From Nemertoderma westbladi (lineage: Eukaryota > Animalia > Xenacoelomorpha), in contig JAUCBJ010002587.1 in the NCBI GenBank assembly GCA_032718475.1, positions 1 through 64,000 on the forward strand: a stretch of 64,000 nucleotides of DNA. Reading direction: 5' to 3'. Under the pieces are notes generated by a model. The model made no database searches. It was not told the DNA's origin and worked only from the letters and a program-made list of their open reading frames with translations. This document shows, piece by piece, positions 8,714 to 52,194 of the stretch (positions are counted from its first letter, which is position 1; every line of letters starts with the position of its first letter). Both the position numbers and the translations under genes were made by a program.

Positions 8714-8878
8714 ACTCTATATGTCCCTGATCCCGATGCTTGCCTTCTACTAGAACCCGTTCCAACCACTCCAACTAATTTTTCACCAGCTGCCATTCCT
8801 GAGGAAGATGATGACGGATTTGGTAAACCAATGTCGTCTCGATTTACAGATCTACCAACAGTTACTGCCAGTAAACCA
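8714..8878 (+). CDS. OXR1: OXR1/NCOA7-family gene, exon A (just after LysM domain)
   Basis: tttacag|ACT; encodes TLYVPDPDACLL...TVTASKP, resembling the VLYVPDP that follows the LysM domain in OXR1. Phase-0 donor CCA|GTTAGT at 8879 fits the next exon. Confidence 0.75.
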
Positions 8879-10097
8879 GTTAGTTGATTAGTTCACATCT
8901 ACCAACAGTTAGTGCCAGTAGACCAGTTAGTTATTTGTTCACATATACAAACAGTTACTGCCAGTAAACCAGTAAGTTTATTTGTTTACATATACAAACA
9001 GTTACTGTCAGTAAACCAGCAAGTTGATTTGTTCACATCTACCAACAGTTACTGCCAGTAAACCAGTAAGTTGATTTGTCCACATCTACCAACAGTTACT
9101 GCCAGTAAACCAGTTAGTTGATTAGTTCACATCTACCAACAGTTAGTGCCAGTAGACCAGTTAGTTATTTGTTCACATATACAAACAGTTACTGCCAGTA
9201 AACCAGTAAGTTTATTTGTTTACATATACAAACAGTTACTGCCAGTAAACCAGTTAGTTGATTTGTTCACATCTACCAACAGTTACTGCCAGTAAACCAG
9301 TAAGTTGATTTGTTCACATATACAAACAGTTACTGCCAGTAAACCAGTAAGTTGATTAGTTCACATCTACCAACAGTTACTGTCAGTAAACCAGTAAGTT
9401 GATTTGTTCACATCTACCAACAGTTACTGCCAGTAAACCAGCAAGTTGATTAGTTCACATCTACCAACAGTTAGTGCCAGTAAACCAGTAAGTTGATTTG
9501 TCCACATCTACCAACAGTTACTGCCAGTAAACCAGTTAGTTGATTTGTTCACATCTACCAACAGTTAATGCCAGTAAACCAGTAAGTTTATTTGTTCACA
9601 TATACAAACAGTTACTGCCAGTAAACCAGTAAGTTGATTTGTCCACATCTACCAACAGTTACTGCCAGTAAAACAGTAAGTTGATTTGTCCACACTACCA
9701 ACAGTTACTGCCAGTAAACCAGTTAGTTGATTTGTTCACATCTACCAACAGTTAGTGCCAGTAAACCAGTAAGTTGATTTGTCCACATCTACCAACAGTT
9801 ACTGTCAGTAAACCAGGAAGTTGATTTGTCCACATCTACCAACAGTTACTGCCAGTAAACCAGTTAGTTGATTTGTTCACATCTACCAACAGTTAGTGCC
9901 AGTAAACCAGTAAGTTGATTTGTCCACATCTACCAACAGTTACTGCCAGTAAACCAGTAAGTTTATTTGTTCACATCTACCAACAGTTACTGCCAGTAAA
10001 CCAGTTAGTTGATTTGTTCACATCTACCAACAGTTACTGCCAGTAAACCAGTAAGTTGATTTGTCCAGGTCTACCAACAACTGCCAATAAACCAGTA
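8850..10097 (+). repeat. 47-bp tandem array (~26 copies) spanning the exon A splice donor
   Basis: Unit atctaccaacagttactgccagtaaacca|gt(a/t)agttgatttgttcac; the first copy begins inside exon A. Confidence 0.95.
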
Positions 10098-10124
10098 ATC
10101 TAATTTTTCCACGTATACCAGTTT

Positions 10125-10364: not shown

Positions 10365-10604
10365 ACAACCCAACCGAAAAATAAAGCGGACCTCCGAGCC
10401 AGCGACGAGCGGCCGCGCAGCGCCACGTCGAAGATCCACAAACTGTTGAAACGACCAGGTCGGGCGGTTCGTCAGTTAGCCCGTGGCGAGTCGGTTGGCA
10501 GTGTTGACAGTAACGAGGTGTTCAGCGAACCAGTTGAGGACCCTGAGAGCGAGTACACTGAAGATTTCCTTAAGATCAACAGTAAATACGTCACATACGA
10601 TAAG
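10365..10604 (+). CDS. OXR1: OXR1-family exon B
   Basis: Pyrimidine tract + tttag acceptor; 80 codons ending EYTEDFLKINSKYVTYDK (OXR1 motif FLKINCKYIT); donor AAG|GTAGGT. Confidence 0.9.
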
Positions 10605-10794
10605 GTAGGTGGTACGATACACCGTTTGTAGTGTTTCTTCTGAAACCTACCTCACTACACTTCTTCATGGATATCATTTTGTATAGTGGTGGTGGTGGAC
10701 TATGTCTGCTACAACCACATCCAAATATCAAACAGGACTTATATGTTTAAACTTGTGTCTATTATTATATATTAATATGACTATATATCCCTTA

Positions 10795-12048
10795 CTGTTT
10801 TCTCTTCCAAGACACTGTATCTGGTACTACACTGTATCTGGTACTTTTTTATCTTCCAGGGCACTGTATCTGGTTTACTACACTGTATCTGGTACTACAC
10901 TGTATCTGCTGGTACTACACTGTATCTGGTACTTTTTTCTCTTCCAGGGCCCTGTATCTGTTACTATACTGTATCTGGTATTTTTTTCTCTTCCAGGCCC
11001 CTGTATCTGGTACTACACTGTATCTGGTACTTTTTTCTCTTCCAGGGCCCTGTATCTGGTACTACACTGTATCTGGTACTTTTTTCTCTTCCAGGGCCCT
11101 GTATCTGGTACTACACTGTATCTGGTACTGTTAGCTATGGCATTGTATCTTACTAGGTACTACAATGTGTCCGGTCTGTTTTCTCTTCCAGGGCCCTGTA
11201 TCTGGTACTACACTGTATCTGGTACTTTTTTCTCTTCCAGGGCCCTGTATCTGGTACTACACTGTATCTGGTACTGTTAGCTATGGCACTGTTATCTTAC
11301 TAGGTATTACAATGTGTCCGGTATGTTTTCTCTTCCAGGGCACTGTATCTGGTACTACATTGTATCCGGTATGTTTTCTCTTCCAGGGCACTGTATCTGG
11401 TACTTTTTTCTCTTCCAGGGCCCTGTGTCTGGTACTACACTGTATCTGGTACTGTTATCTCTTACATGGCACTGTATCTTACTAGGTACTACAATGTGTC
11501 CGGTCTGTTTTCTCTTCCAGGGCACTGTATCTGATGGTACTACATTGTATCCGGTATGTTTTCTCTTTCAGGGCACTGTATCTGGTACTACACTGTATCT
11601 GGTACTGTTAGCTATGGCACTGTATCTTACTAGGTACTACAATGTGTCCGGTCTGTTTTCTCTTCCAGGGCACTGTATCTGATGGTACTACATTGTATCC
11701 GGTATGTTTTCTCTTTCAGGGCACTGTATCTGATGGTACTACATTGTATCCGGTATGTTTTCTCTTTCAGGGCACTGTATCTGATGGTACTACATTGTAT
11801 CCGGTATGTTTTCTCTTTCAGGGCACTGTATCTGGTACTACACTGAATCCGGTACTGTTTTCTCTTACATGGCCCTGTATCTGGTACTACACTGTTTCCG
11901 GTCTGTTTTCTCTTCCAGGGCACTGTATCTGGTACTTTTTTCTCTTCCAAGACACTGTATCTGGTACTACACTGTATCTGGTACTGTTTTCTCTTACATG
12001 GCGCTATATCCGGACTATTTTCTCTTACAGGGTACTGTGTCCGGGACC
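10795..12048 (+). repeat. Complex minisatellite spanning the exon C splice acceptor
   Basis: Built from ttttctcttccag|ggc(a/c)ctgtatctggtact plus 18-bp acactgtatctggtact(ac) subunits; the last copy is the true acceptor plus the GTVSGT codons. Confidence 0.9.
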
Positions 12049-13144
12049 CTCCTGGTAACGCCCAACTCGGTTATGTTTGATCCCGACACCGCGGACCCCT
12101 CCGTTATCGAGAACGGTTGCGATACCTACGGTATTATAACTCCGATAAACCTCGTTGTTTCCGCCTCCTTATTCAGCGATTGCGGTCCTCTGATTGAGCG
12201 AAATTCGCCTCACCGAGCCAAAACTGAGCAGGATTGTTTGTACCACGGCGAGGGGGGTCGTAAGTCACCCACCTCCCCGGCAGTTCCTCTTGCCACAAAC
12301 ACCCAACCCTGCGAATCCATTCCAATGAGCAAAGAAGAAGATATCAGTGAGTCCATCGATATGAAACACCCCGAACTGATAGAAGGTGAGTCGGGAGACC
12401 GGCCTGGTAGCTTGCATGGCAGCCCGGTGGAGGGTAGAGACTGCCGCACTGACACGGTAGAGTGCGACGATAACGACCGCTTCGGGACATCATCGGAGTC
12501 GGCGGGGTGCGATCGAACTGATTTGCGGAGTGCGGACGATTCGGTTCCGGTGGACATTTCGGACTCTATCGTAGTCGTGGCTCGAGACTCAGAAACTGAC
12601 CGACGAACTATTTCCGGTGACTTCGAACTTGTATCCATGGATATCCCGAGCGAGAGGTCTCCAACAAAGACTAAAGAAGGTTTATTACCGAAGATGAAAC
12701 GGAGGATGAAGTCCCCGTTGTCTAAGAAACAACAACGCGTTGCCAAGGAAACCAGGGAGTCTTCTTTCACGTGTTACATCAGCGATTCCAGCAATGAAGA
12801 CGACGGCGGTGACGCTGTTTCCCCAGGTAGTAGCCCCAAACAGTGTGAAGGTGACGCGTCCTGCGTCCATTGTGCAGCCCCACTCATCCCGCCTATCGTC
12901 TCTATGACTACCGGCGACCCCGTGGTCCTCAATAACTTCATCGACTACTCCAGCGGGTTGTTCCGCTGCAGTCGGCGTCCCTCGGTCCCTGACATCTCCC
13001 AGGCCGCCTTCATTACCACCGAGTCTCAACGCGAGCTGTCCCGTCTGTCCCGTAAGCGTGGGAACCAGCTGCGTCCCCCCACCTGGAGGGAGAGTCTATC
13101 CGAGCACCCGTCCGTTTGGCAGTCCCTGTTCTGTAACTTGGAAG
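12031..13144 (+). CDS. OXR1: OXR1-family exon C (GRAM-like start plus long acidic/Ser-rich linker)
   Basis: tctcttacag|GGT; begins GTVSGTLLVTPNSVMFDP...DPSVIENGCDTYGIITP (OXR1 GTVSGVLLVTPNNIMFDP). Phase-1 donor GAAG|GTAGTC at 13145 chosen to match the next exon, so the 3' end is less certain. Confidence 0.85.
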
Positions 13145-13711: not shown

Positions 13712-14190
13712 TAGCTAAAAGTTATGTTATGGGCGTTTTCCTTGTCGCTGTTTTCATTACAAACGTCAGTTTTCACTTTTATCGAAAACTATTATGTCTC
13801 TATTCTATGTCTGTCTGTCTGTCCGACGATCTGTCTGTCAAAATGTAAGGACAATATGCCACCTAGCTAAAACTTTTTTGCTGTGGTTTTCGGTCGCTGA
13901 TTTGATTTCCGACGTCAGTTTTCACTTTTAACCAAACCTACTATGTTTGAATGTCTGTCTATCGGTATTTCTGTCTGTCCAGCGTTCTGTCTGTCAAGGT
14001 AATAGGAATGCATACCAACTAGCTAAAAATTTTGTTGTGGGGGTTTTCATGGTGGGTGATTTCATTTCCGATGTCAGTTTTCGTGTTTTATGTCATCCAC
14101 ATTGTTGTCTGTTTCTCTGTTTAGCTGTCGGTTATATTTTGACGGACAGACAGACAGCAATAACAGACAGACATCTGTCAAATGATTAAA
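13712..14190. repeat. Three diverged ~155-bp direct repeats, part of a dispersed element
   Basis: tagctaaaa...gtcgctgatttgatttccgacgtcagttttcac...gtctgtctgtcaa at about 13712, 13864 and 14020; related sequence at about 17310-17495. Confidence 0.6.
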
Positions 14191-15997: not shown

Positions 15998-16208
15998 AAT
16001 TACAACCTAAACACCGTATAACCCTGGGCGACGAACAACCCTTGTATCTATGCATCCGAGTAAACAAACCGATGGCCCAGACTTTCCGGAGCCTCCGGTC
16101 TGGCGACGACGGGACAGCGGTGGACGACGATGAGTCACCGTCTACGGTCTCCAACACCAAGGTCTCATCCCTCAACCACAGCTATTGGTTCGCTATTCCG
16201 CGCAACGA
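15998..16208 (+). CDS. OXR1: OXR1-family exon D
   Basis: tttgtctag|AA; encodes (E)LQPKHRITLGDEQPLYLCIRVNKP...SYWFAIPRN. PLYLCxR and YWFxIPR are conserved motifs of invertebrate OXR1/mustard. Donor GA|GTAAGT (phase 2). Absent from the ORF track. Confidence 0.88.
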
Positions 16209-22964: not shown

Positions 22965-25900
22965 TTTAGAGTTGACCATCGTATTCCATTTTATTTCTAG
23001 AGGTCACCATCTATATTCCATTTTATTCACAGATGGGATCCTCTCTCTCTATTCCATTTTATTCACAGAGGTGACCATCTCTCTCTATTCCATTTTATTC
23101 ACAGAGGTGACCATCTCTCTCTATTCCATTTTATTCACAGAGGTGACCATCTCTCTCTATTCCATTTTATTCACAGAGGTGACCATCTCTCTCTATTCCA
23201 TTTTATTCACAGAGGTGACCATCTCTCTCTATTCCATTTTATTTACAGAGGTGACTTATACACAGAGGTGACCATCTTTTCTCTTCCATTTTATTCACTG
23301 AGATGACCATCTTCTCTATTCCATTTTATTCACATAGGTGACAATCTTCTCTATTCAATTTTATTCACAGAGTTGACCCTTCTCTCTCTATTCCATTTTA
23401 TTCACAGAGGTGACCATCTATCTATATTTCATTTTATTCACAGAGGTGACCATCTTCTCTATTCCATTTTATTCACATAGGTGACAATCTTCTCTATTCC
23501 ATTTTATTCACAGATGGGAACCTCTCTCTCTATTCAATTTTATTCACAGGGGTGACCATCTTCTCTATTCCATTTTATTCACAGAGGTGACCATCTTCTC
23601 TATTCCATTTTATTCACAGAGGTGACCATCTATCTCTATTCCATTTTATTCACAGAGGGGAGAATCTTCTCTATTCCATATTATTCACAGAGGTTAGCAT
23701 CTCTATTCCATTTTATTCACAGAGGTGACCATTTTCTCTATTCCATTTTATTCACAGAGGTGACAATCTTCTCTATTCTATTTTATTCACAGAGGTGACA
23801 ATCTTCTCTATTCCATTTTATTCACAGAGGTGACCATCTTCTCTATTCCATTTTATTCACAGAGGTGACCATCTTCTCTATTCCATTTTATTCACAGAGG
23901 TGACAATCTTCTCTATTCCATTTTATTCACAGAGGGGACAATCTTCTCTATTCCATATTATTCACAGAGGTTAGCATCTCTATTCCATTTTATTCACAGA
24001 GGTGACAATCTTCTCTATTCCATTTTATTCACAGAGGTGACAATCTTCTCTATTCCATATTATTCACAGAGGTTAGCATCTCTATTCCATTTTATTCACA
24101 GAGGTGACAATCTTCTCTATTCCATTTTATTCACAGAGGTGACCATTTTCTCTATTCCATTTTATTCACAGAGGTGACAATCTTCTCTATTCTATTTTAT
24201 TCACAGAGGTGACAATCTTCTCTATTCCATTTTATTCACAGAGGTGACCATCTTCTCTATTCCATTTTATTCACAGAGGTGACCATCTTCTCTATTCCAT
24301 TTTATTCACAGAGGTGACCATCTATCTCTATTCCATTTTATTCACAGAGGGGACAATCTTCTCTATTCCATATTATTCACAGAGGTTAGCATCTCTATTC
24401 CATTTTATTCACAGAGGTGACCATCTTCTCTATTCCATTTTATTCACAGAGGTGACAATCTTATCTATTCTATTTTATTCACAGAGGTGACAATCTTCTC
24501 TATTCCATTTTATTCACAGAGGTGACCATCTTCTCTATTCCATTTTATTCACAGAGGTGACAATCTTCTCTATTCCATATTATTCACAGAGGTTAGCATC
24601 TCTATTCCATTTTATTCACAGAGGTGACCATTTTCTCTATTCCATTTTATTCACAGAGGTGACAATCTTCTCTATTCTATTTTATTCACAGAGGTGACAA
24701 TCTTCTCTATTCCATTTTATTCACAGAGGTGACCATCTTCTCTATTCCATTTTATTCACAGAGGTGACAATCTTCTCTATTCCATATTATTCACAGAGGT
24801 TAGCATCTCTATTCCATTTTATTCACAGAGGTGACAATCTTATCTATTCTATTATATTCACAGAGGTGACAATCTTCTCTATTCCATTTTATTCACAGAG
24901 GTGACAATCTTCTCTATTCCATTTTATTCACAGAGGTGACAATCTTCTCTATTCCATATTATTCACAGAGGTTAGCATCTCTATTCCATTTTATTCACAG
25001 AGGTGACAATCTTCTCTATTCCATTTTATTCACAGAGGTGACCATTTTCTCTATTCCATTTTATTCACAGAGGTGACAATCTTCTCTATTCCATTTTATT
25101 CACAGAGGTGACCATCTTCTCTATTCCATTTTATTCACAGAGGTGACCATCTTCTCTATTCCATTTTATTCACAGAGGTGACCATCTATCTCTATTCCAT
25201 TTTATTCACAGAGGGGACAATCTTCTCTATTCCATATTATTCACAGAGGTTAGCATCTCTATTCCATTTTATTCACAGAGGTGACCATCTTCTCTATTCC
25301 ATTTTATTCACAGAGGTGACCATCTTCTCTATTCCATTTTATTCACAGAGGTGACCATCTATCTCTATTCCATTTTATTCACAGAGGGGACAATCTTCTC
25401 TATTCCATATTATTCTCAGAGGTTAGCATCTCTATTCCATTTTATTCACAGAGGTGACAATCTTCTCTATTCCATTTTATTCACAGAGGTGACCATTTTC
25501 TCTATTCCATTTTATTCACAGAGGTGACAATCTTCTCTATTCTATTTTATTCACAGAGGTGACAATCTTCTCTATTCCATTTTATTCACAGAGGTGACCA
25601 TCTTCTCTATTCCATTTTATTCACAGAGGTGACCATCTTCTCTATTCCATTTTATTCACAGAGGTGACCATCTATCTCTATTCCATTTTATTCACAGAGG
25701 GGACAATCTTCTCTATTCCATATTATTCACAGAGGTTAGCATCTCTATTCCATTTTATTCACAGAGGTGACCATCTTCTCTATTCCATTTTATTCACAGA
25801 GGTGACAATCTTCTCTATTCTATTTTATTCACAGAGGTGACAATCTTCTCTATTCCATTTTATTCAAAGAGGTGACCATCTTCTCTATTCCATTTTATTC

Positions 25901-28900: not shown

Positions 28901-31900
28901 TATCTATATTCCATTTTATTCACAGAGGTGACCATCTTCTCTATTCCATTTTATTCACAGAGGTGACCATCTTCTCAATTCCATTTTATTCAAAGAGGTG
29001 ACCATCTTCTCTATTCCATTTTATTCACAGAGGTGACCATCTATCTCTATTCCATTTTATTCACAGAGGTGACCATCTCTATTCCATTTTATTCACAGAG
29101 GTGACCATCTTCTCAATTCCATTTTATTCAAAGAGGTGACCATCGTCTCTATTCCATTTTATTCACAGAGGTGACCATCTATCTCTATTCCATTTTATTC
29201 ACAGATAATTCCATTTTATTCACAGAGTCTCTCTCTATTCCATTTTATTCACAGAGGTGACCATCTATCTCTATTCCATTTTATTCACAGAGGTGACCAT
29301 CTATCTCTATTCCATTTTATTCACAGAGGTGACCATCTTCTCTATTTCATTTTATTCACAGAGGTGACCATCTCTCTCTATTCCATTTTATTCACAGAGG
29401 TGACCATCTCTCTCTATTCCGTTTCATTCACAGATAATTCCATTTTATTCACAGAGGTGACCATCTATCTCTTTCTTTTTATTCACAGAGGTGACCATCT
29501 CTCTCTATTCCATTTTATTCACAGAGGTGACAATCTTCTCTATTCCATTTTATTAACAGAGGTGACCATCTCTCTCTATTCCATTTTATTCACAGAGAAT
29601 TCCATTTTATTCACAGAGGTGACCATCTTCTCTATTTCATTTTATTCACAGAGGTGACCATCTATTTCTATTCCATTTTATTCACAGAGGTGACCATCTA
29701 TCTCTATTCCATTTTATTCACAGAGGTACCATCTTCTCTATTCCATTTTATTCACAGAGGTGACCATCTCTCTCTATTCCATTTTATTCACAGAGAATTC
29801 CATTTTATTCACAGAGGTGACCATCTATCTCTTTCTTTTTATTCACAGAGGTGACCATCTCTCTCTATTCCATTTTATTCACAGAGGTGACAATCTTCTC
29901 TATTCCATTTTATTCACAGAGGTGACCATCTCTCTCTATTCCATTTTATTCACAGAGAATTCCATTTTATTCACAGAGGTGACCATCTTCTCTATTTCAT
30001 TTTATTCACAGAGGTGACCATCTTCTCTATTCCATTTTATTCACAGAGGTGACCATCTCTCTCTATTCCATTTTATTCACAGAGGTGCCATCTCCTCTAT
30101 TCCATTTTATTCACAGAGGTGACCATCTCTCTCTTTTCCATTTTATTCACAGAGGTGACCATCTATCTCTATTCCATTTTATTCACAGAGGTGACCATCT
30201 ATCTCTATTCCATTTTATTCACAGAGGTGACCATCTTCTCTATTCCATTTTATTCACAGAGGTGACCATCTCTCTCTATTCCATTTTATTCACAGAGAAT
30301 TCCATTTTATTCACAGAGATGACCATATATCTTTATTACATTTTATTCACAGAGGTGACCATCTATCTCTATTCCATTTTATTCACAGAGGTGCCATCTC
30401 CTCTATTCCATTTTATTCACAGAGGTGACCATCTCTCTCTATTCCATTTTATTCACAGAGAATTCCATTTTATTCACAGAGATGACCATCTATTTCTATT
30501 CCATTTTATTCACAGAGGTGACCATCTATCTCTATTCCATTTTATTCACAGAGGTGCCATCTCCTCTATTCCATTTTATTCACAGAGAATTCCATTTTAT
30601 TCACAGAGGTGACCATCTATCTCTATTCCATTTTATTCACAGAGGTGACCATCTATCTCTATTCCATTTTATTCACAGAGGTGACCATCTATCTCTATTC
30701 CATTTTATTCACAGAGGTGACCATCTTCTCTATTCCATTTTATTCACAGAGGTGACCATCTCTCTCTATTCCATTTTATTCACAGAGAATTCCATTTTAT
30801 TCACAGAGATGACCATCTATCTCTATTCCATTTTATTCACAGAGGTGACCATCTATCTCTATTCCATTTTATTCACAGAGGTGGCCATCTTCTCTATTCC
30901 AATTTATTCACAGAGCTGACCATCTCTCTCTATTCCATTTTATTCACAGAGAATTCCATTTTATTCACAGAGGTGACCGACCATCTATCTCTATTCCATT
31001 TTATTCACAGAGGTGACCATCTTCTCTATTCCATTTTATTCACAGAGGTTACCATCTCTCTCTATTCCATTTTATTCACAGAGAATTCCATTTTATTCAC
31101 AGAGGTGACCATCTATCTCTATTCCATTTTATTTACAGAGGTGACCATCTCTCTCTATTCAATTTTATTCACAGAGGTGACCATCTTTCTCTATTCCATT
31201 TTATTCACAGAGGTGACCATCTATCTCTATTCCATTTTATTTACAGAGGTGACCATATCTCTCTATTCAATTTTATTCACAGAGGTGACCATCTATCTCT
31301 ATTCCATTTTATTTACAGAGGTGACCATATCTCTCTATTCAATTTTATTCACAGAGGTGACCATCTATCTCTATTCCATTTTATTCACAGAGGTGACCAT
31401 CTATCTCAATTCCATTTTATTCACAGAGGTGACCATCTCTATTCCATTTTATTCTCAGAGGTGACCATCTATCTCTATTCCATTTTATTCACAGAGAATT
31501 CCATTTTATTCACAGAGATGACCATCTATCTCTATTCAATTTTATTCACAGAGGTGACCATCTATCTATATTCCATTTTATTCACAGAGGTGACCATCTA
31601 TCTCTATTCCATTTTATTCACAGAGGTGACCATCTATCTCTATTCCATTTTATTCTCAGAGGTGACCATCTATCTCTATTCCATTTTATTCACAGAGGTG
31701 ACCATCTATCTATATTCCATTTTATTCACAGAGGTGACCATCTATCTATATTCCATTTTATTCACAGAGGTGACCATCTATCTCTATTCCATTTTATTCA
31801 CAGAGGTGACCATCTATCTCTATTCCATTTTATTCACAGAGGTGACCATCTATCTCTATTCCATTTTATTCACAGAGGTGACCATCTATCTATATTCCAT

Positions 31901-34346
31901 TTTATTCACAGAGGTGACCATCTATCTATATTCTATTTTATTCACAGAGGTGACCATCTCTCTCTATTCCATTTTACTCACAGAGGTGACCATCTTCTCT
32001 ATTCCATTTTATTCACAGAGGTGACCATCTCTCTCTATTCCATTCTATTCACAGAGGTGACCATCTATCTCTATTCCATTTTATTCACAGAGGTGACCAT
32101 CTCTCTCTATTCCATTTTATTCACAGAGAATTCCATTTTATTCACAGAGGGGACCATCTCTCTCTATTCCATTTTATTCACAGAGGTGACCATCTCTCTC
32201 TATTACATTTTATTCACAGAGGTGACCATATCTCTCTATTCCATTTTATTCACAGAGGTGACCATCTATCTCTATTCCATTTTATTCACAGAGGTGACCA
32301 TCCTCTCTATTCCATTTTATTCACAGAGGTGACCATATCTCTCTATTCCATTTTATTCACAGAGGTGACCATCTCTCTCTATTCCATTTTATTCACAGAG
32401 GTGACATCTATCTCTATTCCATTTTATTCACAGAGGTGACCATCTATCTCTATTCCATTTTATTCACAGAGGTGACCATCTATCTCTATTCCATTTTATT
32501 CACAGAGGTGACCATCTATCTCTATTACATTTTATTCACAGAGGTGACCATATCTCTCTATTCCATTTTATTCACAGAGGTGACCATCTCTCTCTATTCC
32601 ATTTTATTCACAGAGGTGACCATCTATCTCTATTCCATTTTATTCACAGAGGTGACCATCTATCTCTATTCCATTTTATTCACAGAGGTGACCATCTCTC
32701 TCTATTACATTTTATTCACAGAGGTGACCATATCTCTCTATTCCATTTTATTCACAGAGGTGACCATCTATCTCTATTCCATTTTATTCACAGAGGTGAC
32801 CATCCTCTCTATTCCATTTTATTCACAGAGGTGACCATATCTCTCTATTACATTTTATTCACAGAGGTGACCATATCTCTCTATTCCATTTTATTCACAG
32901 AGGTGGCCATCTCTCTCTATTCCATTTTATTCACAGAGGTGACCATCTATCTCTATTCCATTTTATTCACAGAGGTAACCATCTATCTCTATTCCATTTT
33001 ATTCACAGAGGTGACCATCTATCTCTATTCCATTTTATTCACAGAGGTGACCATCCTCTCTATTCCATTTTATTCACAGAGGTGACCATCTCTCTCTATT
33101 CCATTTTATTCACAGAGGTGACCATCTCTCTCTATTACATTTTATTCACAGAGGTGACCATATCTCTCTATTCCATTTTATTCACAGAGGTGACCATCTA
33201 TCTCTATTCTATTTTATTCACAGAGGTGACCATCTCTCTCTATTCCATTTTATTCACAGAGGAGACCATCTCTCTCTATTCCATTTTATTCACAGAGGTG
33301 ACCATCCTCTCTATTCCATTTTATTCACAGAGGTGACCATATCTCTCTATTCCATTTTATTCACAGAGGTGACCATCCTCTCTATTCCATTTTATTCACA
33401 GAGGTGACCATCTCTCTCTATTACATTTTATTCACAGAGGTGACCATATCTCTCTATTCCATTTTATTCACAGAGGTGACCATCTATCTCTATTCCATTT
33501 TATTCACAGAGGTGACCATCTCTCTCTATTCCATTTTATTCACAGAGGTGACCATCTCTCTCTATTCCATTTTATTCACAGAGGTGACCATCTCTCTCTA
33601 TTCCATTTTATTCACAGAGGTGACCATCTCTCTCTATTCCATTTTATTCACAGAGGTGACCATCTCTCTCTATTACATTTTATTCACAGAGGTGACAATC
33701 TTCTCTATTACATTTTATTCACAGAGGTGACCATATCTCTCTATTCCATTTTATTCACAGAGGTGACCATCTCTCTCTATTACATTTTATTCACAGAGGT
33801 GACCATATCTCTCTATTCCATTTTATTCACAGAGGTGACCATCTATCTCTATTCCATTTTATTCACAGAGGTGACCATCTATCTCTATCCCATTTTATTC
33901 ACAGAGGTGACCATCTCTCTCTATTACATTTTATTCACAGAGGTGACAATCTTCTCTATTATATTTTATTCGAGGTGACCATATCTCTCTATTCCATTTT
34001 ATTCACAGAGGTGACCATCTCTCTCTATTCCATTTTATTCACAGAGGTGACCATCTTCTCTATTCCATTTTATTCACAGAGGTGACCATCTATCTCTATT
34101 CCATGTTATTCACAGAGGTGACCATCTCTTTCTATTACATTTTATTCACAGAGGTGACCATCTCTCTCTATTACATTTTATTCACAGAGGTGACCATCTA
34201 TCTCTATTCCATTTTATTCACAGAGGTGACCATATCTCTCTATTCCATTTTATTCACAGAGGTGACCATCTCTCTCTATTACATTTTATTCACAGAGGTG
34301 ACCATCTATCTCTATTCCATTTTATTCACAGAGGTGACCATCTATA
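22965..34346 (+). repeat. 32/35/36-bp satellite, ~11.4 kb (~320 copies), spanning the exon E splice acceptor
   Basis: Unit ctattccattttattcacag|aggtgaccatctatct; the final copy runs directly into exon E. Confidence 0.97.
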
Positions 34347-34536
34347 TGCCTTCTTCCTTCAATGGTCTCCATCTATATATGGGAAGGAATGCGATGACAC
34401 CGACTACAATGTTAGTGACCATGGCTTTGTTGTCGTGGAAACGACTGACCAGGATGAGCCGGTTATGTCAGCAGACTATAGTTCCTATGGAGACAGACCG
34501 GAAGCTCTGGCCATCGAGGTCAAAAAAGATTGGGAG
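34332..34536 (+). CDS. OXR1: OXR1-family exon E
   Basis: ttattcacag|A; joins exon D to give WFAIPRNEGDHLYAFFLQWSPSIYG...GFVVVE...KKDWE (OXR1 WFAVPQERTDHLYAFFIQWSP). Donor GAG|GTGCGT. Confidence 0.92.
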
Positions 34537-35240
34537 GTGCGTATAGCTATTTGGGGATAAAGTTAACAAACCTGATGATTATGGTTTATTAGTATAAAAT
34601 ATAATCAATTAAAAATGATTACAAACACAATCCACTATGTTTTTGTTACCATGTGTTTTACGGTTGTGTTTTTATTCTCGATACGTGTCGATGTTTAAAA
34701 TAGTGTTCTATATTCTATATAGAGTTAAGGTAAAATATTTTTTATTATAGATAGTATCGAGATTAAGTAATTTGTTTTATTTTCTATTCTAGGTAGTGTC
34801 GAAGTTTTTTATTCTATGTAATATTATGGTAATGTTCAGAAATGGAAAAACTGAGGAGCCAGCGCTATACGTACGTTTCGGAACATAACCATATTCGGAA
34901 CATTACCATAATATTACATCATTAATAATTACAGTTGCATCAACAGCTCAACGCCAATTCATTTATGCATTCTAGATAGTTTCGAGGTTAAACAAAACAT
35001 GTGGAAGGAATTGGGTAGGGGGGATGATGCCTTTACCACAAATGAGTGTAGAGTCTGAACTTATTTCCTGTATCCAAGTTATGGCTGTGAGTGAACAACT
35101 ATTGGTGGTCCATATTAATGCTTTGTTTTTGCTAAACTCACCCTATATCTCGCTCCCTAATCACTGATTGGTTGCTTTGCTTTATTATCACCCTCTCTCT
35201 CACTCCCTAATCACTGATTGGTTGCTTTTATTTATTATAG

Positions 35241-35345
35241 TTAATATCAATAAGATATCGCAGGAGGTCTTGGATTGCTGAACCAATATCATTTCCTATT
35301 ATAAATGGAGATACTCATTTGTTGAATCCTCAACAAATAGTCAGT
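35241..35345 (+). CDS. OXR1: OXR1-family exon F (entry to TLDc domain)
   Basis: tttattatag|TTA; 35 codons LISIRYRRRSWIAEPISFPIINGDTHLLNPQQIVS, aligning to the P.L...S.LL...QI segment that starts TLDc. Phase-0 donor AGT|GTAGGT. Confidence 0.75.
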
Positions 35346-38300
35346 GTAGGTAGCCAACCTCTAGGGTGTTTAGTCATTGTAGGTAGCCAACCTCTAGGGT
35401 GTTTAGTCATTGTAGGTAGCCAACCTCTAGGGTGTTTAGTCAGTGTAGGTAGCCAACCTCTAGGGTGTTTAGTCAGTGTAGGTAGCCAACCTCTAGGGTG
35501 TTTAGTCAGTGTAGGTAGCCAACCTCTAGGGTGTTTACTGTTTAGTCAGTGTAGGTAGCCAACCTCTAGGTTGTTTAGTCAGTGTAGGTAGCCAACCTCT
35601 AGGGTGTTTAGTCAGTGTAGGTAGCCAACCTCTAGGGTGTTTAGTCAGTGTAGGTAGCCAACCTCTAGGGTGTTTACTGTTTAGTCAGTGTAGGTAGCCA
35701 ACCTCTAGGTTGTTTAGTCAGTGTAGGTAGCCAACCTCTAGGTTGTTTAGTCAGTGTAGGTAGCCAACCTCTAGGGTGTTTAGTCAGTGTAGGTAGCCAA
35801 CCTCTAGGGTGTTTAGTCTTAGTCAGTGTGGGTAGCCAACCTCTAGGGTGATTAGTCAGTGTAGGTAGCCAACCTCTAGGGTGTTTAGTCAGTCTAGGTA
35901 GCCAACCTCTAGGGTGTTTAGTCAGTGTAGATAACCAACCTCTAAGGTGTTTAGTCAGAGTAGGTAGTTAACCTCTAGGGTGTTTAGTCTTAGTCAGTGT
36001 AGGTAGCCAACCTCTAGGGTGTTTAGTCAGTGTAGGTAGCCAACCTCTAGGGTGTTTAGTCTTAGTCAGTGTAGGTAGCCAACCTCTAGGGTGTTTAGTC
36101 AGTGTAGGTAGCCAACTTCTAGGGTGTTTAGTCTTAGTCAATGTAGGTAGCCAACCTCTAGGGTGTTTAGTCTTAGTCAGTGTAGGTAGCCAACCTCTAG
36201 GGTGTTTAGTCAGTGTAGGTAGCCAACCTCTAGGGTGTTTAGTCAGTGTAGGTAGCCAAGCTCTAGGGTGTTTAGTCTTAGTCAGTGTAGGTAGCCAACC
36301 TCTAGGGTGTTTAGTCAGTGTAGGTAGCCAACCTCTAGGTTGTTTAGTCAGTGTAGGTAGCCAACCTCTAGGGTGTTTAGTCAGTGTAGGTAGCCAACCT
36401 CTAGGGTGTTTAGTCTTAGTCAGTGTAGGTGCTGGCCAACCTCTAGGGCGTTTAGTCAGTGTAGGTAGCCAACCTCTAGGGTGTTTAGTCAGTGTAGGTA
36501 GCCAACCTCTAGGATGTTTAGTCAGTGTAGGTAGCCAACCTCTAGGGTGTTTAGTCAGTGAAGGTAGCCAACCTCTAGGGTGTTTAGTCAGTGTAGGTAG
36601 CCAACCTCTAGGGTGTTTAGTCAGTGTAGGTAGCCAACCTCTAGGGTGTTTAGTCAGTGTAGGTAGCCAACCTCTAGGGTGTTTAGTCAGTGTAGGTAGC
36701 CAACCTCTAGGGTGTTTAGTCTTAGTCAGTGTAGGTAGCCAACCTCTAGGGTGTTTAGTCAGTGTAGGTAGCCAACCTCTAGGGTGTTTAGTCAGTGTAG
36801 GTAGCCAACCTCTAGGGTGTTTAGTCAGTGTAGGTAGCCAACCTCTAGGGTGTTTAGTCAGTGAAGGTAGCCAACCTCTAGGGTGTTTAGTCAGTGTAGG
36901 TAGCCAACCTCTAGGGTGTTTAGTCAGTGTAGGTAGCCAACCTCTAGGGTGTTTAGTCAGTGTAGGTAGCCAACCTCTAGGGTGTTTAGTCAGTGTAGGT
37001 AGCCAACCTCAAGGGTGTTTAGTCTTAGTCAGTGTAGGTAGCCAACCTCTAGGGTGTTTAGTCAGTGTAGGTAGCCAACCTCTAGGGTGTTTTGTTTAGT
37101 CAGTGTAGGTAGCCAACCTCTAGGGTGTTTAGTCAGTGTAGGAGGTAGCCAACCTCTAGGGTGTTTTGTTTAGTCAGTGTAGGTAGCCAACCTCTAGGGT
37201 GTTTAGTCAGTGTAGGTAGCCAACCTCTAGGGTGTTTAGTCTTAGTCAGTGTAGGTAGCCTACCTCTAGGGTGTTTAGTCAGTGTAGGTAGCCTACCTCT
37301 AGGGTGTTTAGTCAGTGTAGGTAGCCAACCTCTAGGGTGTTTAGTCAGTGTAGGTAGCCAACCTCTAGGGTGTTTAGTCAGTGTAGGTAGCCAACCTCTA
37401 GGGTGTTTAGTCTTAGTCAGTGTAGGTAGCCTACCTCTAGGGTGTTTAGTCTTAGTCAGTGTAGGTAGCCATCCTCTAGGGTGTTTAGTCAGTGTAGGTA
37501 GCCTACCTCTAGGGTGTTTAGTCTTAGTCAGTGTAGGTAGCCTACCTCTAGGGTGTTTAGTCAGTGTAGGTAGCCTACCTCTAGGGTGTTTAGTCTTAGT
37601 CAGTGTAGGTAGCCAACCTCTAGGGTGTTTAGTCAGTGTAGGTAGCCAACCTCTAGGGTGTTTAGTCAGTGTAGGTAGCCAACCTCAAGGGTGTTTAGTC
37701 TTAGTCAGTGTAGGTAGCCAACCTCTAGGGTGTTTAGTCAGTGTAGGTAGCCAACCTCTAGGGTGTTTTGTTTAGTCAGTGTAGGTAGCCAACCTCTAGG
37801 GTGTTTAGTCAGTGTAGGTAGCCAACCTCTAGGGTGTTTTGTTTAGTCAGTGTAGGTAGCCAACCTCTAGGGTGTTTAGTCAGTGTAGGTAGCCTACCTC
37901 TAGGGTGTTTAGTCTTAGTCAGTGTAGGTAGCCTACCTCTAGGGTGTTTAGTCAGTGTAGGTAGCCTACCTCTAGGGTGTTTAGTCTTAGTCAGTGTAGG
38001 TAGCCAACCTCTAGGGTGTTTAGTCAGTGTAGGTAGCCAACCTCTAGGGTGTTTAGTCAGTGTAGGTAGCCAACCTCTAGGGTGTTTAGTCTTAGTCAGT
38101 GTAGGTAGCCAACCTCTAGGGTGTTTAGTCTTAGTCAGTGTAGGTAGCCTACCTCTGGGGTGTTTAGTCAGTGTAGGTAGCCAACCTCTAGGGTGTTTAG
38201 TCTTAGTCAGTGTAGGTAGCCTACCTCTAGGGTGTTTAGTCAGTGTAGGTAGCCTACCTCTAGGGTGTTTAGTCTTAGTCAGTGTAGGTAGCCAACCTCT

Positions 38301-41300
38301 AGGGTGTTTAGTCTTAGTCAGTGTAGGTAGCCTACCTCTAGGGTGTTTAGTCAGTGTAGGTAGCCTACCTCTAGGGTGTTTAGTCTTAGTCAGTGTAGGT
38401 AGCCAACCTCTAGGGTGTTTAGTCTTAGTCAGTGTATGTAGCCTACCTCTAGGGTGTTTAGTCAGTGTAGGTAGCCTACCTCTAGGGTGTTTAGTCTTAG
38501 TCAGTGTAGGTAGCCAACCTCTAGGGTGTTTAGTCTTAGTCAGTGTAGGTAGCCTACCTCTAGGGTGTTTAGTCAGTGTAGGTAGCCTACCTCTAGGGTG
38601 TTTAGTCTTAGTCAGTGTAGGTAGCCAACCTCTTAGGGTGTTTAGTCAGTGTAGGTAGCCAACCTCTAGGTTGTTTAGTCAGTGTAGGTAGCCAACCTCT
38701 AGGGTGTTTAGTCAGTGTAGGTAGCCAACCTCTAGGTTGTTTAGTCAGTGTAGGTAGCCAACCTCAAGGGTGTTTAGTCTTAGTCCAACCTCTAGGGTGT
38801 TTTGTTTAGTCAGTGTAGGTAGCCAACCTCTAGGGTGTTTAGTCAGTGTAGGTAGCCAACCTCTAGGTTGTTTAGTCAGTGTAGGTAGCCAACCTCTAGG
38901 GTGTTTAGTCAGTGTAGGTAGCCTACCTCTAGGGTGTTTAGTCTTAGTCAGTGTAGGTAGCCTACCTCTAGGGTGTTTAGTCAGTGTAGGTAGCCTACCT
39001 CTAGGGTGTTTAGTCTTAGTCAGTGTAGGTAGCCAACCTCTAGGGTGTTTAGTCAGTGTAGGTAGCCTACCTCTAGGGTGTTTAGTCTTAGTCAGTGTAG
39101 GTAGCCAACCTCTAGGGTGTTTAGTCTTAGTCAGTGTAGGTAGCCTACCTCTAGGGTGTTTAGTCAGTGTAGGTAGCCAACCTCTAGGGTGTTTAGTCTT
39201 AGTCAGTGTAGGTAGCCTACCTCTAGGGTGTTTAGTCAGTGTAGGTAGCCAACCTCTAGGGTGTTTAGTCTTAGTCAGTGTAGGTAGCCAACCTCTAGGG
39301 TGTTTAGTCTTAGTCAGTGTAGATAGCCTACCTCTAGGGTGTTTAGTTAGTGTAGGTAGCCTACCTCTAGGGTGTTTAGTCTTAGTCAGTGTAGGTAGCC
39401 AACCTCTAGGGTGTTTAGTCAGTGTAGGTAGCCAACCTCTAGGGTGTTTAGTCAGTGTAGGTAGCCAACCTCTAGGGTGTTTAGTCTTAGTCAGTGTAGG
39501 TAGCCTACCTCTAGGGTGTTTAGTCTTAGTCAGTGTAGGTAGCCTACCTCTAGGGTGTTTAGTCAGTGTAGGTAGCCTACCTCTAGGGTGTTTAGTCTTA
39601 GTCAGTGTAGGTAGCCAACCTCTAGGGTGTTTAGTCTTAGTCAGTGTAGGTAGCCAACCTCTAGGGTGTTTAGTCAGTGTAGGTAGCCTACCTCTAGGGT
39701 GTTTAGTCTTAGTCAGTGTAGGTAGCCAACCTCTAGGGTGTTTAGTCTTAGTCAGTGTAGGTAGCCTACCTCTAGGGTGTTTAGTCAGTGTAGGTAGCCA
39801 ACCTCTAGGGTGTTTAGTCTTAGTCAGTGTAGGTAGCCTACCTCTAGGGTGTTTAGTCAGTGTAGGTAGCCAACCTCTAGGGTGTTTAGTCTTAGTCAGT
39901 GTAGGTAGCCAACCTCTAGGGTGTTTAGTCTTAGTCAGTGTAGATAGCCTACCTCTAGGGTGTTTAGTTAGTGTAGGTAGCCTACCTCTAGGGTGTTTAG
40001 TCTTAGTCAGTGTAGGTAGCCAACCTCTAGGGTGTTTAGTCAGTGTAGGTAGCCAACCTCTAGGGTGTTTAGTCAGTGTAGGTAGCCAACCTCTAGGGTG
40101 TTTAGTCTTAGTCAGTGTAGGTAGCCTACCTCTAGGGTGTTTAGTCTTAGTCAGTGTAGGTAGCCTACCTCTAGGGTGTTTAGTCAGTGTAGGTAGCCTA
40201 CCTCTAGGGTGTTTAGTCTTAGTCAGTGTAGGTAGCCAACCTCTAGGGTGTTTAGTCTTAGTCAGTGTAGGTAGCCTACCTCTAGGGTGTTTAGTCAGTG
40301 TAGGTAGCCTACCTCTAGGGTGTTTAGTCTTAGTCAGTGTAGGTAGCCAACCTCTAGGGTGTTTAGTCTTAGTCAGTGTATGTAGCCTACCTCTAGGGTG
40401 TTTAGTCAGTGTAGGTAGCCTACCTCTAGGGTGTTTAGTCTTAGTCAGTGTAGGTAGCCAACCTCTAGGGTGTTTAGTCTTAGTCAGTGTAGGTAGCCTA
40501 CCTCTAGGGTGTTTAGTCAGTGTAGGTAGCCTACCTCTAGGGTGTTTAGTCTTAGTCAGTGTAGGTAGCCAACCTCTTAGGGTGTTTAGTCAGTGTAGGT
40601 AGCCAACCTCTAGGTTGTTTAGTCAGTGTAGGTAGCCAACCTCTAGGGTGTTTAGTCAGTGTAGGTAGCCAACCTCTAGGTTGTTTAGTCAGTGTAGGTA
40701 GCCAACCTCAAGGGTGTTTAGTCTTAGTCCAACCTCTAGGGTGTTTTGTTTAGTCAGTGTAGGTAGCCAACCTCTAGGGTGTTTAGTCAGTGTAGGTAGC
40801 CAACCTCTAGGTTGTTTAGTCAGTGTAGGTAGCCAACCTCTAGGGTGTTTAGTCAGTGTAGGTAGCCTACCTCTAGGGTGTTTAGTCTTAGTCAGTGTAG
40901 GTAGCCTACCTCTAGGGTGTTTAGTCAGTGTAGGTAGCCTACCTCTAGGGTGTTTAGTCTTAGTCAGTGTAGGTAGCCAACCTCTAGGGTGTTTAGTCAG
41001 TGTAGGTAGCCTACCTCTAGGGTGTTTAGTCTTAGTCAGTGTAGGTAGCCAACCTCTAGGGTGTTTAGTCTTAGTCAGTGTAGGTAGCCTACCTCTAGGG
41101 TGTTTAGTCAGTGTAGGTAGCCAACCTCTAGGGTGTTTAGTCTTAGTCAGTGTAGGTAGCCTACCTCTAGGGTGTTTAGTCAGTGTAGGTAGCCAACCTC
41201 TAGGGTGTTTAGTCTTAGTCAGTGTAGGTAGCCAACCTCTAGGGTGTTTAGTCTTAGTCAGTGTAGATAGCCTACCTCTAGGGTGTTTAGTTAGTGTAGG

Positions 41301-44300
41301 TAGCCTACCTCTAGGGTGTTTAGTCTTAGTCAGTGTAGGTAGCCAACCTCTAGGGTGTTTAGTCAGTGTAGGTAGCCAACCTCTAGGGTGTTTAGTCAGT
41401 GTAGGTAGCCAACCTCTAGGGTGTTTAGTCTTAGTCAGTGTAGGTAGCCTACCTCTAGGGTGTTTAGTCTTAGTCAGTGTAGGTAGCCAACCTCTAGGGT
41501 GTTTAGTCAGTGTAGGTAGCCAAGCTCTAGGGTGTTTAGTCTTAAGTCAGTGTAGGTAGCCAACCTCTAGGGTGTTTAGTCTTAGTCAGTGTAGGTAGCC
41601 AACCTCTAGGGTGTTTAGTCAGTGTAGGTAGCCTACCTCTAGGGTGTTTAGTCTTAGTCAGTGTAGGTAGCCTACCTCTAGGGTGTTTAGTCAGTGTAGG
41701 TAGCCTACCTCTAGGGTGTTTAGTCTTAGTCAGTGTAGGTAGCCAACCTCTAGGGTGTTTAGTCAGTGTAGGTAGCCAACCTCTAGGGTGTTTAGTCAGT
41801 GTAGGTAGCCAACCTCAAGGGTGTTTAGTCTTAGTCAGTGTAGGTAGCCAACCTCTAGGGTGTTTAGTCTTAGTCAGTGTAGGTAGCCTACCTCTAGGGT
41901 GTTTAGTCTTAGTCAGTGTAGGTAGCCAACCTCTAGGGTGTTTAGTCAGTGTAGGTAGCCTACCTCTAGGGTGTTTAGTCTTAGTCAGTGTAGGTAGCCA
42001 ACCTCTAGGGTGTTTAGTCAGTGTAGGTAGCCAACCTCTAGGGTGTTTAGTCTTAGTCAGTGTAGGTAGCCTACCTCTAGGGTGTTTAGTCTTAGTCAGT
42101 GTAGGTAGCCTACCTCTAGGGTGTTTAGTCAGTGTAGGTAGCCTACCTCTAGGGTGTTTAGTCTTAGTCAGTGTAGGTAGCCAACCTCTAGGGTGTTTAG
42201 TCTTAGTCAGTGTAGGTAGCCTACCTCTAGGGTGTTTAGTCAGTGTAGATAACCAACCTCTAGGGTGTTTAGTCAGTGTAGGTAGCCAACCTCTAGGGTG
42301 TTTAGTCAGTGTAGGTAGCCAACCTCTAGGGTGTTTAGTCAGTGTAGGTAGCCAACCTCAAGGGTGTTTAGTCTTAGTCAGTGTAGGTAGCCAACCTCTA
42401 GGGTGTTTAGTCTTAGTCAGTGTAGGTAGCCTACCTCTAGGGTGTTTAGTCTTAGTCAGTGTAGGTAGCCAACCTCTAGGGTGTTTAGTCAGTGTAGGTA
42501 GCCTACCTCTAGGGTGTTTAGTCTTAGTCAGTGTAGGTAGCCTACCTCTAGGGTGTTTAGTCAGTGTAGGTAGCCAACCTCTAGGGTGTTTAGTCTTAGT
42601 CAGTGTAGGTAGCCAACCTCTAGGGTGTTTAGTCTTAGTCAGTGTAGATAGCCTACCTCTAGGGTGTTTAGTTAGTGTAGGTAGCCTACCTCTAGGGTGT
42701 TTAGTCTTAGTCAGTGTAGGTAGCCAACCTCTAGGGTGTTTAGTCAGTGTAGGTAGCCAACCTCTAGGGTGTTTAGTCAGTGTAGGTAGCCAACCTCTAG
42801 GGTGTTTAGTCTTAGTCAGTGTAGGTAGCCTACCTCTAGGGTGTTTAGTCTTAGTCAGTGTAGGTAGCCAACCTCTAGGGTGTTTAGTCAGTGTAGGTAG
42901 CCAAGCTCTAGGGTGTTTAGTCTTAAGTCAGTGTAGGTAGCCAACCTCTAGGGTGTTTAGTCTTAGTCAGTGTAGGTAGCCTACCTCTAGGGTGTTTAGT
43001 CTTAGTCAGTGTAGGTAGCCAACCTCTAGGGTGTTTAGTCAGTGTAGGTAGCCTACCTCTAGGGTGTTTAGTCTTAGTCAGTGTAGGTAGCCTACCTCTA
43101 GGGTGTTTAGTCAGTGTAGGTAGCCTACCTCTAGGGTGTTTAGTCTTAGTCAGTGTAGGTAGCCAACCTCTAGGGTGTTTAGTCAGTGTAGGTAGCCAAC
43201 CTCTAGGGTGTTTAGTCAGTGTAGGTAGCCAACCTCAAGGGTGTTTAGTCTTAGTCAGTGTAGGTAGCCAACCTCTAGGGTGTTTAGTCAGTGTAGGTAG
43301 CCAACCTCTAGGGTGTTTAGTCAGTGTAGGTAGCCAACCTCTAGGGTGTTTTGTTTAGTCAGTGTAGGTAGCCAACCTCTAGCGTGTTTAGTCAGTGTAG
43401 GTAGCCAACCTCTAGGGTGTTTTGTTTAGTCAGTGTAGGTAGCCAACCTCTAGGGTGTTTAGTCAGTGTAGGTAGCCTACCTCTAGGGTGTTTAGTCTTA
43501 GTCAGTGTAGGTAGCCTACCTCTAGGGTGTTTAGTCAGTGTAGGTAGCCCTACCTCTAGGGTGTTTAGTCTTAGTCAGTGTAGGTAGCCAACCTCTAGGG
43601 TGTTTAGTCAGTGTAGGTAGCCAACCTCTAGGGTGTTAGTCAGTGTAGGTAGCCAACCTCTAGGGTGTTTAGTTTTAGTCAGTGTAGGTAGCCAACCTCT
43701 AGGGTGTTTAGTCAGTGTAGGTAGCCAACCTCTAGGGTGTTTAGTCAGTGTAGGTAGCCAACCTCTAGGGTGTTTAGTCTTAGTCAGTGTAGGTAGCCAA
43801 CCTCTAGGGTGTTTAGTCAGTGTAGGTAGCCAACCTCTAGGGTGTTTAGTCAGTGTAGGTAGCCAACCTCTAGGGTGTTTTGTTTAGTCAGTGTAGGTAG
43901 CCAACCTCTAGGGTGTTTAGTCAGTGTAGGTAGCCTACCTCTAGGGTGTTTAGTCTTAGTCAGTGTAGGTAGCCTACCTCTAGGGTGTTTAGTCAGTGTA
44001 GGTAGCCTACCTCTAGGGTGTTTAGTCAGTGTAGGTAGCCAACCTCTAGGGTGTTTAGTCAGTGTAGGTAGCCAACCTCTAGGGTGTTTAGTCTTAGTCA
44101 GTGTAGGTAGCCAACCTCTAGGGTGTTTAGTCAGTGTAGGTAGCCAACCTCTAGGGTGTTTAGTCAGTGTAGGTAGCCAACCTCTAGGGTGTTTTGTTTA
44201 GTCAGTGTAGGTAGCCAACCTCTAGGGTGTTTAGTCAGTGTAGGTAGCCTACCTCTAGGGTGTTTAGTCTTAGTCAGTGTAGGTAGCCTACCTCTAGGGT

Positions 44301-44481
44301 GTTTAGTCAGTGTAGGTAGCCTACCTCTAGGGTGTTTAGTCTTAGTCAGTGTAGGTAGCCAACCTCTAGGGTGTTTAGTCAGTGTAGGTAGCCAACCTCT
44401 AGGGTGTTTAGTCAGTGTAGGTAGCCAACCTCTAGGGTGTTTAGTCTTAGTCAGCGTAGGTAGCCTACCTCTAGGGTGTTT
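35338..44481 (+). repeat. 30/36-bp satellite, ~9.1 kb (~280 copies), spanning the exon F splice donor
   Basis: Unit tagtcagt|gtaggtagcc(a/t)acctctagggtgtt with an optional tagtct insert; the first copy overlaps the last codons of exon F. Confidence 0.97.
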
Positions 44482-45966: not shown

Positions 45967-45969
45967 CTA

Positions 45970-52179: not shown

Positions 52180-52194
52180 TTTTATCATGCCATA

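What the first reader, a model, noticed from the sequence alone, without database searches (positions are those of the whole stretch)
8850..44481. Four satellites in one gene are amplified copies of its own splice junctions
Seen: four unrelated arrays each straddle an OXR1 exon boundary. These are the exon A donor (47 bp), exon C acceptor (complex), exon E acceptor (~36 bp) and exon F donor (30/36 bp). Each unit contains exon codons, the GT or AG, and intron flank. The copy that keeps the conserved protein is always terminal (first for donors, last for acceptors), so expansion runs into the intron. That is 4 of the 14 junctions seen. Inference: this points to a junction-focused duplication process, or selection tolerating only intron-ward expansion, plus a spliceosome that must pick one site among hundreds of decoys. 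I do not recall this described at such density.
Basis: partly seen in the sequence, partly recalled or inferred. Interest (0 to 1): 0.85.

Follow-up and report, generated by a model that had tools for sequence, protein, structure and literature searches.

The report
Giant splice-junction repeats in OXR1 gene
In an animal's OXR1 gene, four short stretches that span predicted exon-intron borders are copied head-to-tail, up to about 330 times, into the introns; this repeat type is already known from lancelets, birds and humans, and the spare splice signals are likely ignored, but these arrays are unusually large.

Summary
Four unrelated, locally born arrays straddle OXR1 exon edges: A donor (47 bp x 27), C acceptor (32/49 bp x 26), E acceptor (35/36 bp x about 328) and F donor (33/39 bp x about 254, not 30/36). 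Homolog alignments support all four junctions. The arrays fill 23 kb of a 45-kb gene span. This is a known class: amphioxus 'mirages', human junction VNTRs (F7, CBS, 6-16) and chicken 'exon stuttering' (2026). The scan also noted it before in many other animal genomes. The terminal position of the coding copy follows from tandem geometry, so it does not show a direction of growth. Four straddles exceed chance with today's intron lengths (expected 0.25-0.9, P 5e-5 to 4e-3). The excess fades if introns were 300-500 bp when the arrays began (P 0.02-0.3), and the window was picked after the fact. No genome or RNA was available, so splice-site use and array lengths are untested. What stands out is scale: copy numbers 6-7 times the largest I read in print (44), and the nearest 7 E and 5 F decoys are in frame and stop-free. 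Verdict: new, extreme member of a known kind.

The parts
8714..8878 (+). OXR1 exon A (inferred; end of the LysM region)
   Evidence: AG/GT edges; both ends align with homologs
8850..10098 (+). Array A: 47-bp unit (29 nt exon tail + donor + 18 nt intron head), 27 copies
10365..10604 (+). OXR1 exon B (inferred)
10793..12044 (+). Array C: 32-bp base unit (intron tail + acceptor + exon head) with a 17-bp internal sub-repeat; 25 decoys, 17 with AG
12031..13144 (+). OXR1 exon C (inferred). The donor at 13144 gives the phase that exon D needs; another GT at 13180 would need an unseen exon
15998..16208 (+). OXR1 exon D (inferred)
22967..34345 (+). Array E: 35/36-bp unit (also 32 and 21 bp), about 328 copies of the exon E acceptor, 11.4 kb
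34332..34536 (+). OXR1 exon E (inferred)
35138..35238 (+). 50-bp x 2 duplication ending 2 nt before the exon F acceptor; adjacent to the junction, not straddling it
35241..35345 (+). OXR1 exon F (inferred)
   Evidence: no BLAST hit at E<1e-3 in 0 of 65 homologs on its own
35338..44482 (+). Array F: 33/39-bp unit (8 nt exon tail + donor + intron head), about 254 copies, 9.1 kb
54015..54167 (+). OXR1 exon G, first TLDc exon
   Evidence: Pfam PF07534; NCOA7 chains

Best explanation
Four local tandem repeats each hold a piece of a predicted OXR1 exon edge with its splice signal; they likely began as short chance duplications in a repeat-prone gene, likely grew by slippage and unequal exchange, and are likely skipped in splicing because only the outermost copy adjoins the full exon. 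Step 1 (inferred): a 30-50 bp slip at short microhomologies duplicates a stretch. In short introns a fair share of such stretches overlap an exon edge. Step 2 (follows from geometry): the terminal copy rebuilds the original exon, so the protein is unchanged and the extra copies fall in the intron; duplications wholly inside exons are purged. Step 3 (inferred from unit order): unequal exchange amplifies blocks of units to kilobases. Step 4 (inferred from F7 and amphioxus data): the exon-adjacent site is chosen, by 5'-to-3' choice of the first donor and by exon definition for the last acceptor. Mis-splicing in arrays A and C would meet stop codons. It is a mirage / exon-stuttering gene of unusual size.
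For: Tandem arrays cover 65% of the gene span and 11 of 15 do not straddle a junction, so the whole gene stutters. Units are unrelated and local. Flanks show short shared motifs at the seams (read by eye). Unit classes form ordered domains and repeated blocks: identical runs of 18 units in E and 36 in F. The terminal copies restore conserved spacing: B|C spacing 15 aa in 27 of 27 homologs with both motifs, D|E spacing 9 aa in 30 of 30 (of 47 examined); A|B and F|G align without extra sequence in the window's protein. All 25 A decoys listed and all 17 AG-bearing C decoys meet a stop. The working A donor matches U1 at 6 of 9 positions against 7 of 9 for 13 downstream decoys, which F7-type first-site choice would tolerate (PMC1557585). 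Same architecture in PMC3087553, PMC3902484 and PMC12954441. The junction excess shrinks to P 0.02-0.09 for 500-bp and 0.1-0.3 for 300-bp ancestral introns.
Against: With present intron lengths 4 straddles is well above expectation: 0.25-0.41, P 5e-5 to 6e-4; per-intron null 0.66-0.89, P 5e-4 to 4e-3. The two giant arrays sit in introns that still collapse to 6.5 and 4.1 kb, where a straddle is a 1-2% event per array, and only 77 bp of the collapsed D-E intron is recognisably interspersed repeat within the window. The short-ancestral-intron rescue is therefore an assumption. The nearest 7 E and 5 F decoys are in frame and stop-free, so decay of mis-spliced RNA cannot protect these. Splice-site use was not observed.
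Confidence: 0.62

Rival explanations
1. Junction-targeted seeding: a splicing-coupled process (R-loops or polymerase pausing at intron ends, or RNA-templated repair) makes duplications start preferentially at splice sites, and these then amplify.
For: 4 of 12 internal junctions straddled against 0.25-0.9 expected. The two largest arrays inside the gene model both straddle junctions, with only 8 and 12-16 exon bases. A fifth duplication ends 2 nt before the exon F acceptor. An unchecked scan note (e1-9803302) reports about twofold enrichment in a polychaete.
Against: One window chosen after the fact. 11 of 15 arrays lie elsewhere. P rises to 0.02-0.3 with short ancestral introns. Neither ABCE1 junction carries an array. 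No sequence feature here points to such a mechanism.
Confidence: 0.2
2. Functional alternative splicing: the nearest in-frame copies of E (+12 aa each) and F (+11 aa each) are used, giving variable-length OXR1 isoforms, and the arrays are partly kept for this.
For: 7 nearest E acceptors and 5 nearest F donors are in frame and stop-free. 36-bp units dominate near exon E while 35-bp units dominate the 5' half. Human 6-16 and CBS use two extra donors (PMC1557585).
Against: Insertions at D|E would break a 9-aa spacing seen in 30 of 30 homologs with both motifs. 36-bp units also occur at the far 5' end of the array, as expected if ends keep an older unit. All A and C decoys lead to stops.
Confidence: 0.1
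3. Assembly artefact: the short arrays are real but the 9-11 kb lengths of E and F are inflated by mis-joined reads.
For: Exactly repeated blocks of 18 (E) and 36 (F) units could be overlap errors. No reads could be examined.
Against: 82 distinct unit types among 327 in E and 33 among 253 in F, arranged in ordered domains with degenerate ends. The window has no N. Similar arrays were confirmed by raw or repeat sequencing in chicken and lancelet.
Confidence: 0.08

Closest known systems
Avian 'exon stuttering' / sequence stuttering (Hron et al. 2026, PMC12954441; abstract, 12 passages, section 7 part 2, sections 9 and 16 read; supplements not seen)
   Same: Strictly local tandem expansion of an exon edge with its donor or acceptor into the adjacent intron, next to arrays of purely intronic origin. 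Over 90% of sources lie at the exon border; spans run to 23.5 kb.
   Different: Chicken: 1-44 copies (median 4), 3.4% of dot-chromosome introns, GC-rich setting, polymorphism shown. Here: up to about 328 copies, 4 of 6 introns, a 38% GC window in a non-vertebrate-like animal, polymorphism untested. Their filter (20 nt or more of exon) catches only array A here.
Amphioxus 'mirage' minisatellites: Adh3, globins BflGb6/BflGb9, troponin C, PGBD5 (PMC3087553, 6 passages plus a reference entry; PMC3902484, 4 passages; Canestro 2002 not readable)
   Same: Tandem repeats spanning exon-intron boundaries on both donor and acceptor sides, units of 10-160 bp, more than one per gene (PGBD5), with normal splicing reported.
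   Different: 2-7 copies in the cases I read against 26-328 here. The window's animal is not amphioxus (ABCE1 81% identical to B. belcheri; no supported grouping).
Human junction VNTRs: F7 intron 7 (37 bp), CBS intron 13, IFI6/6-16, LMNB2, PDGF (PMC1557585, part 1 of 6 and 12 passages)
   Same: First unit spans the donor, identical pseudo-donors follow, and the most upstream site is used; unit sizes match arrays A and F.
   Different: Single loci with 5-25 copies, all donor-side. They do not address choice of the last among about 300 acceptors.
Internal tandem repeats at exon-intron boundaries in human segmental duplications (PMC2812944, part 1 of 6 and 7 passages)
   Same: Repeats at exon-intron boundaries can alter splicing or create introns.
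   Different: There repeats are largely exonic and variable between paralogs. Here the junctions match conserved protein spacing and there is no sign of intron gain.

Membership tests
Mirage / exon-stuttering repeats | Direct tandem repeat whose unit spans an exon-intron boundary and includes GT or AG | tested here: met
   junctions supported by homologs
Mirage / exon-stuttering repeats | Local origin: copies only in the adjacent intron, units unrelated between loci | tested here: met
   none of the 4 units matches outside its own array; tested within the window only
Mirage / exon-stuttering repeats | Coding exon itself left intact | tested here: met
   731-aa model with no stop; conserved motif spacing kept
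Mirage / exon-stuttering repeats | Normal splicing at the terminal copy | not testable with these tools
   no RNA holder was listed, so no reads could be laid
Mirage / exon-stuttering repeats | Length polymorphism between alleles or individuals | not testable with these tools
   no genome held; no runs listed
Avian exon stuttering (operational screen) | Exon-to-adjacent-intron BLAST hit of 20 nt or more and 42.1 bits or more | tested here: inconclusive
   met by array A (24 hits); not met by C, E or F, whose exon parts are short or diverged
Avian exon stuttering (setting) | GC-rich dot microchromosome | tested here: not met
   window GC 0.38, coding GC 0.52; not filed as the avian dot-chromosome phenomenon itself, only as working like it
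Transposon-derived or dispersed satellite family | Unit related to a dispersed element or found at other loci | tested here: not met
   (window only); the exon parts encode conserved OXR1 residues
OXR1/NCOA7 (TLDc) gene | TLDc domain plus the conserved upstream motifs of OXR1/NCOA7 | tested here: met
   the 5' LysM exons and the last TLDc exons were not found in the window

The most novel reading that the evidence does not exclude
In this animal lineage tandem duplications are seeded preferentially at splice sites by a splicing-coupled process and then grow without limit, so that the spliceosome routinely picks the last of about 300 near-identical acceptors and the first of about 250 donors, even though the nearest decoys are in frame and escape decay. 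The gene would be the most extreme natural test of exon definition described, and current exon-stuttering screens would miss most such events.
Probability: 0.2. Interest if true: 0.65.

Novelty: new member of a known kind. Interest (0 to 1): 0.33.

Why it matters
The structure is known, but two questions about it are open in the papers I read: whether such repeats start at splice sites more often than chance, and how an acceptor is chosen among identical copies. This gene pushes both to an extreme. 192 sites match the working exon E acceptor exactly from -20 to +3, and 237 match the exon F donor from -3 to +6. One RNA-seq data set would measure splice fidelity against hundreds of perfect decoys, including in-frame ones. 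It also shows that the published exon-stuttering filter would find only 1 of these 4 arrays, so published rates are likely undercounts, and that the phenomenon does not need a GC-rich bird microchromosome.

Tried and rejected
Whole genome: none held, so no genome-wide enrichment test. RNA: no RNA holder was listed for exon C; this is no evidence either way. Word-indexed protein searches with exon G and with the start of exon C found nothing; the HMMER search did. Metagenome scan with exon G: 6 distant loci, none a close relative and none informative on introns. PDB searches with exons C and F were uninformative. The atlas search gave an unnamed eukaryote cluster (0.95) and weak GRAM/PH leads. 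A 48-sequence alignment timed out and was rerun with 12 chosen homologs for display and 47 for motif spacing. Taxon placement: the ABCE1 tree left the window in no supported clade; a guess at Xenoturbella got no support from a paper search. Directional expansion: rejected on geometry. Accelerated synonymous divergence of the working exon C copy (5 of 6 third positions differ from the decoy consensus, 0 of 12 other positions): considered and set aside, because two of the five fall in the seam, where the bases match the intron flank, and two more occur in the working state in other sub-units. Purging of the nearest decoys (3 of the nearest 4 C decoys lack AG against 5 of 21 others): Fisher P 0.08, not significant. 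Hidden exons beside the 39, 66 and 23-bp arrays, or a TLDc exon before 64000: none found with 130 homologs. Canestro et al. 2002 could not be read.

Full report
Observation. TRF finds all four arrays. I modelled seven exons with canonical edges: A 8714-8878, B 10365-10604, C 12031-13144, D 15998-16208, E 34332-34536, F 35241-35345, G 54015-54167. Joined, they give 731 residues without a stop. Exon G is a TLDc piece (E 1.4e-8; NCOA7 chains), and the best named relatives of exon C are OXR1/NCOA7 proteins of hemichordates, amphioxus, echinoderms and molluscs. The exon C donor is the least certain edge and is not one of the four. An ABCE1 tree of 35 rows left the animal in no supported clade.

Are the four junctions real? 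Among 47 homologs of 680 aa or more, the motif spacing across B|C is 15 residues in all 27 that show both motifs, and across D|E 9 residues in all 30; the model has 15 and 9. In an alignment with 12 chosen homologs, F|G is colinear with most rows, and the A donor falls at the end of a conserved motif whose codons are in the 47-bp unit. Exon F alone has no hit at E<1e-3 in 65 homologs, so it rests on that alignment and on phase. No RNA could be examined.

Anatomy. Array A: 47-bp unit, 29 nt exon plus 18 nt intron, 26 decoys; 13 match U1 at 7 of 9 positions against 6 of 9 for the working site. A stop lies just inside the intron, so all 25 decoys listed give a stop. Array C: 32-bp base unit with a 17-bp sub-repeat; 25 decoys, 17 with AG, all 17 meeting a stop. 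Array E: 328 units, mostly 36 (138) or 35 bp (135); 192 sites equal the working acceptor from -20 to +3; of 317 acceptor-position sites only the working one and the 7 nearest are in frame and open. None of the four units matches elsewhere in the window. Together they span 23,023 bp of the 45,454-bp model, and all tandem arrays cover 65% of it. E and F show ordered unit domains and repeated blocks, with 82 of 327 and 33 of 253 distinct units.

More than chance? Of 15 merged arrays in the gene, 4 straddle one of 12 internal junctions. With each array collapsed to one unit and placed uniformly, 0.25-0.41 are expected (P 5e-5 to 6e-4). Keeping each array in its own intron gives 0.66-0.89 (P 5e-4 to 4e-3). 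Against this: introns A-B and B-C collapse to 284 and 220 bp; if all introns had been 500 bp at seeding P is 0.023-0.089, and at 300 bp 0.11-0.31; and the window was picked for this pattern from a very large scan. For it: D-E and F-G still collapse to 6.5 and 4.1 kb, little of D-E is visibly interspersed repeat, and a fifth duplication ends 2 nt before the F acceptor. The local excess is real under present geometry, but one window cannot show a junction-targeted process. No genome was held for a proper test.

The 'terminal copy' argument. A unit made of exon tail plus intron head, repeated n times, has only its first copy joined to the rest of the exon; for acceptors only the last. This holds whichever copy was added, so it gives no direction of growth. 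It does explain tolerance: the original mRNA can always be rebuilt.

Mechanism (inferred). A short slip seeds a duplication; the flanks show shared motifs of a few bases at the seams (by eye). Unequal exchange then amplifies blocks. For donors, F7 minigenes show that the most upstream site is used and that stronger downstream copies mostly do not compete (PMC1557585). For acceptors the last copy must win; exon definition is the likely route (established knowledge, not tested), and normal splicing is reported for the acceptor-side BflGb6 mirage (PMC3087553). A and C are backed by stop codons. E and F are not, for their nearest copies, and use of an E decoy would insert 12 residues into an invariant spacing.

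Known systems. Amphioxus mirages (PMC3087553, 6 passages and one reference entry; PMC3902484, 4 passages; the original Adh3 paper could not be read). Human junction VNTRs with 5-25 copies (PMC1557585, part 1 of 6 and 12 passages). Boundary repeats in human duplications (PMC2812944, part 1 of 6 and 7 passages). Closest: chicken exon stuttering, 236 introns in 115 genes, 1-44 copies, spans to 23.5 kb, 3.4% of dot-chromosome introns (PMC12954441; abstract, 12 passages, section 7 part 2, sections 9 and 16). Its screen applied here passes only array A. I saw no supplements of these papers; they may list larger copy numbers. The 'mirage' name and the chicken paper came to me through earlier scan notes, which also record this pattern in annelids, sea urchins, abalone, octopus and elephant shark, with up to about 105 copies; those notes are unchecked by me. 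Nine paper searches listed no genome-wide test of seed enrichment at splice sites in an invertebrate, but they also missed the chicken paper, so that absence is weak.

Verdict. Real and correctly described apart from the F unit length. A new member of a known kind, extreme in copy number (about 328 and 254) and in density (4 of 6 introns). Best reading: general local repeat instability, geometry and silent decoys (0.62). Targeted seeding remains open (0.2). Interest 0.33.

Noticed in passing
window 6160-7515 (minus strand): Intact, intronless 450-aa MurD (peptidoglycan ligase; Pfam MurD_N, Mur_ligase_M and _C) between the animal genes ABCE1 and OXR1. Candidate horizontal transfer into an animal genome, or a chimeric join; not tested with reads. 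No look-alike among earlier scan notes.
   Followed up: partly
window 3392-5662 (plus strand): ABCE1 with a single intron (4329-4778), 606 aa, no tandem array at either junction.
   Followed up: partly
window 56977-64000: 45-bp array with at least 156 copies running off the window inside the intron after exon G. The next TLDc exon is not in the window, so whether it straddles a junction is unknown; the unit does not obviously encode the expected exon start.
   Followed up: partly
window 44735-50253: Three abutting unrelated arrays (66 bp x 19, 23 bp x 183, 16 bp x 6) in intron F-G, with no exon found beside them.
   Followed up: partly
window 14919-15531: 52-bp x 12 array whose unit matches 14109-14145 at 81%, inside a locally repeated element; likely transposon-internal.
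   Followed up: partly
window 50380-53906: Nested inverted repeats (113 bp at 84%, 436 bp at 83%), and what looks by eye like a decayed LINE reverse-transcriptase fragment near 50700-51570.
   Followed up: no
window 11871-12000: 3 of the 4 decoys nearest the exon C acceptor lack AG at the homologous position, against 5 of 21 others (P 0.08): a weak hint of selection against near decoys.
   Followed up: yes
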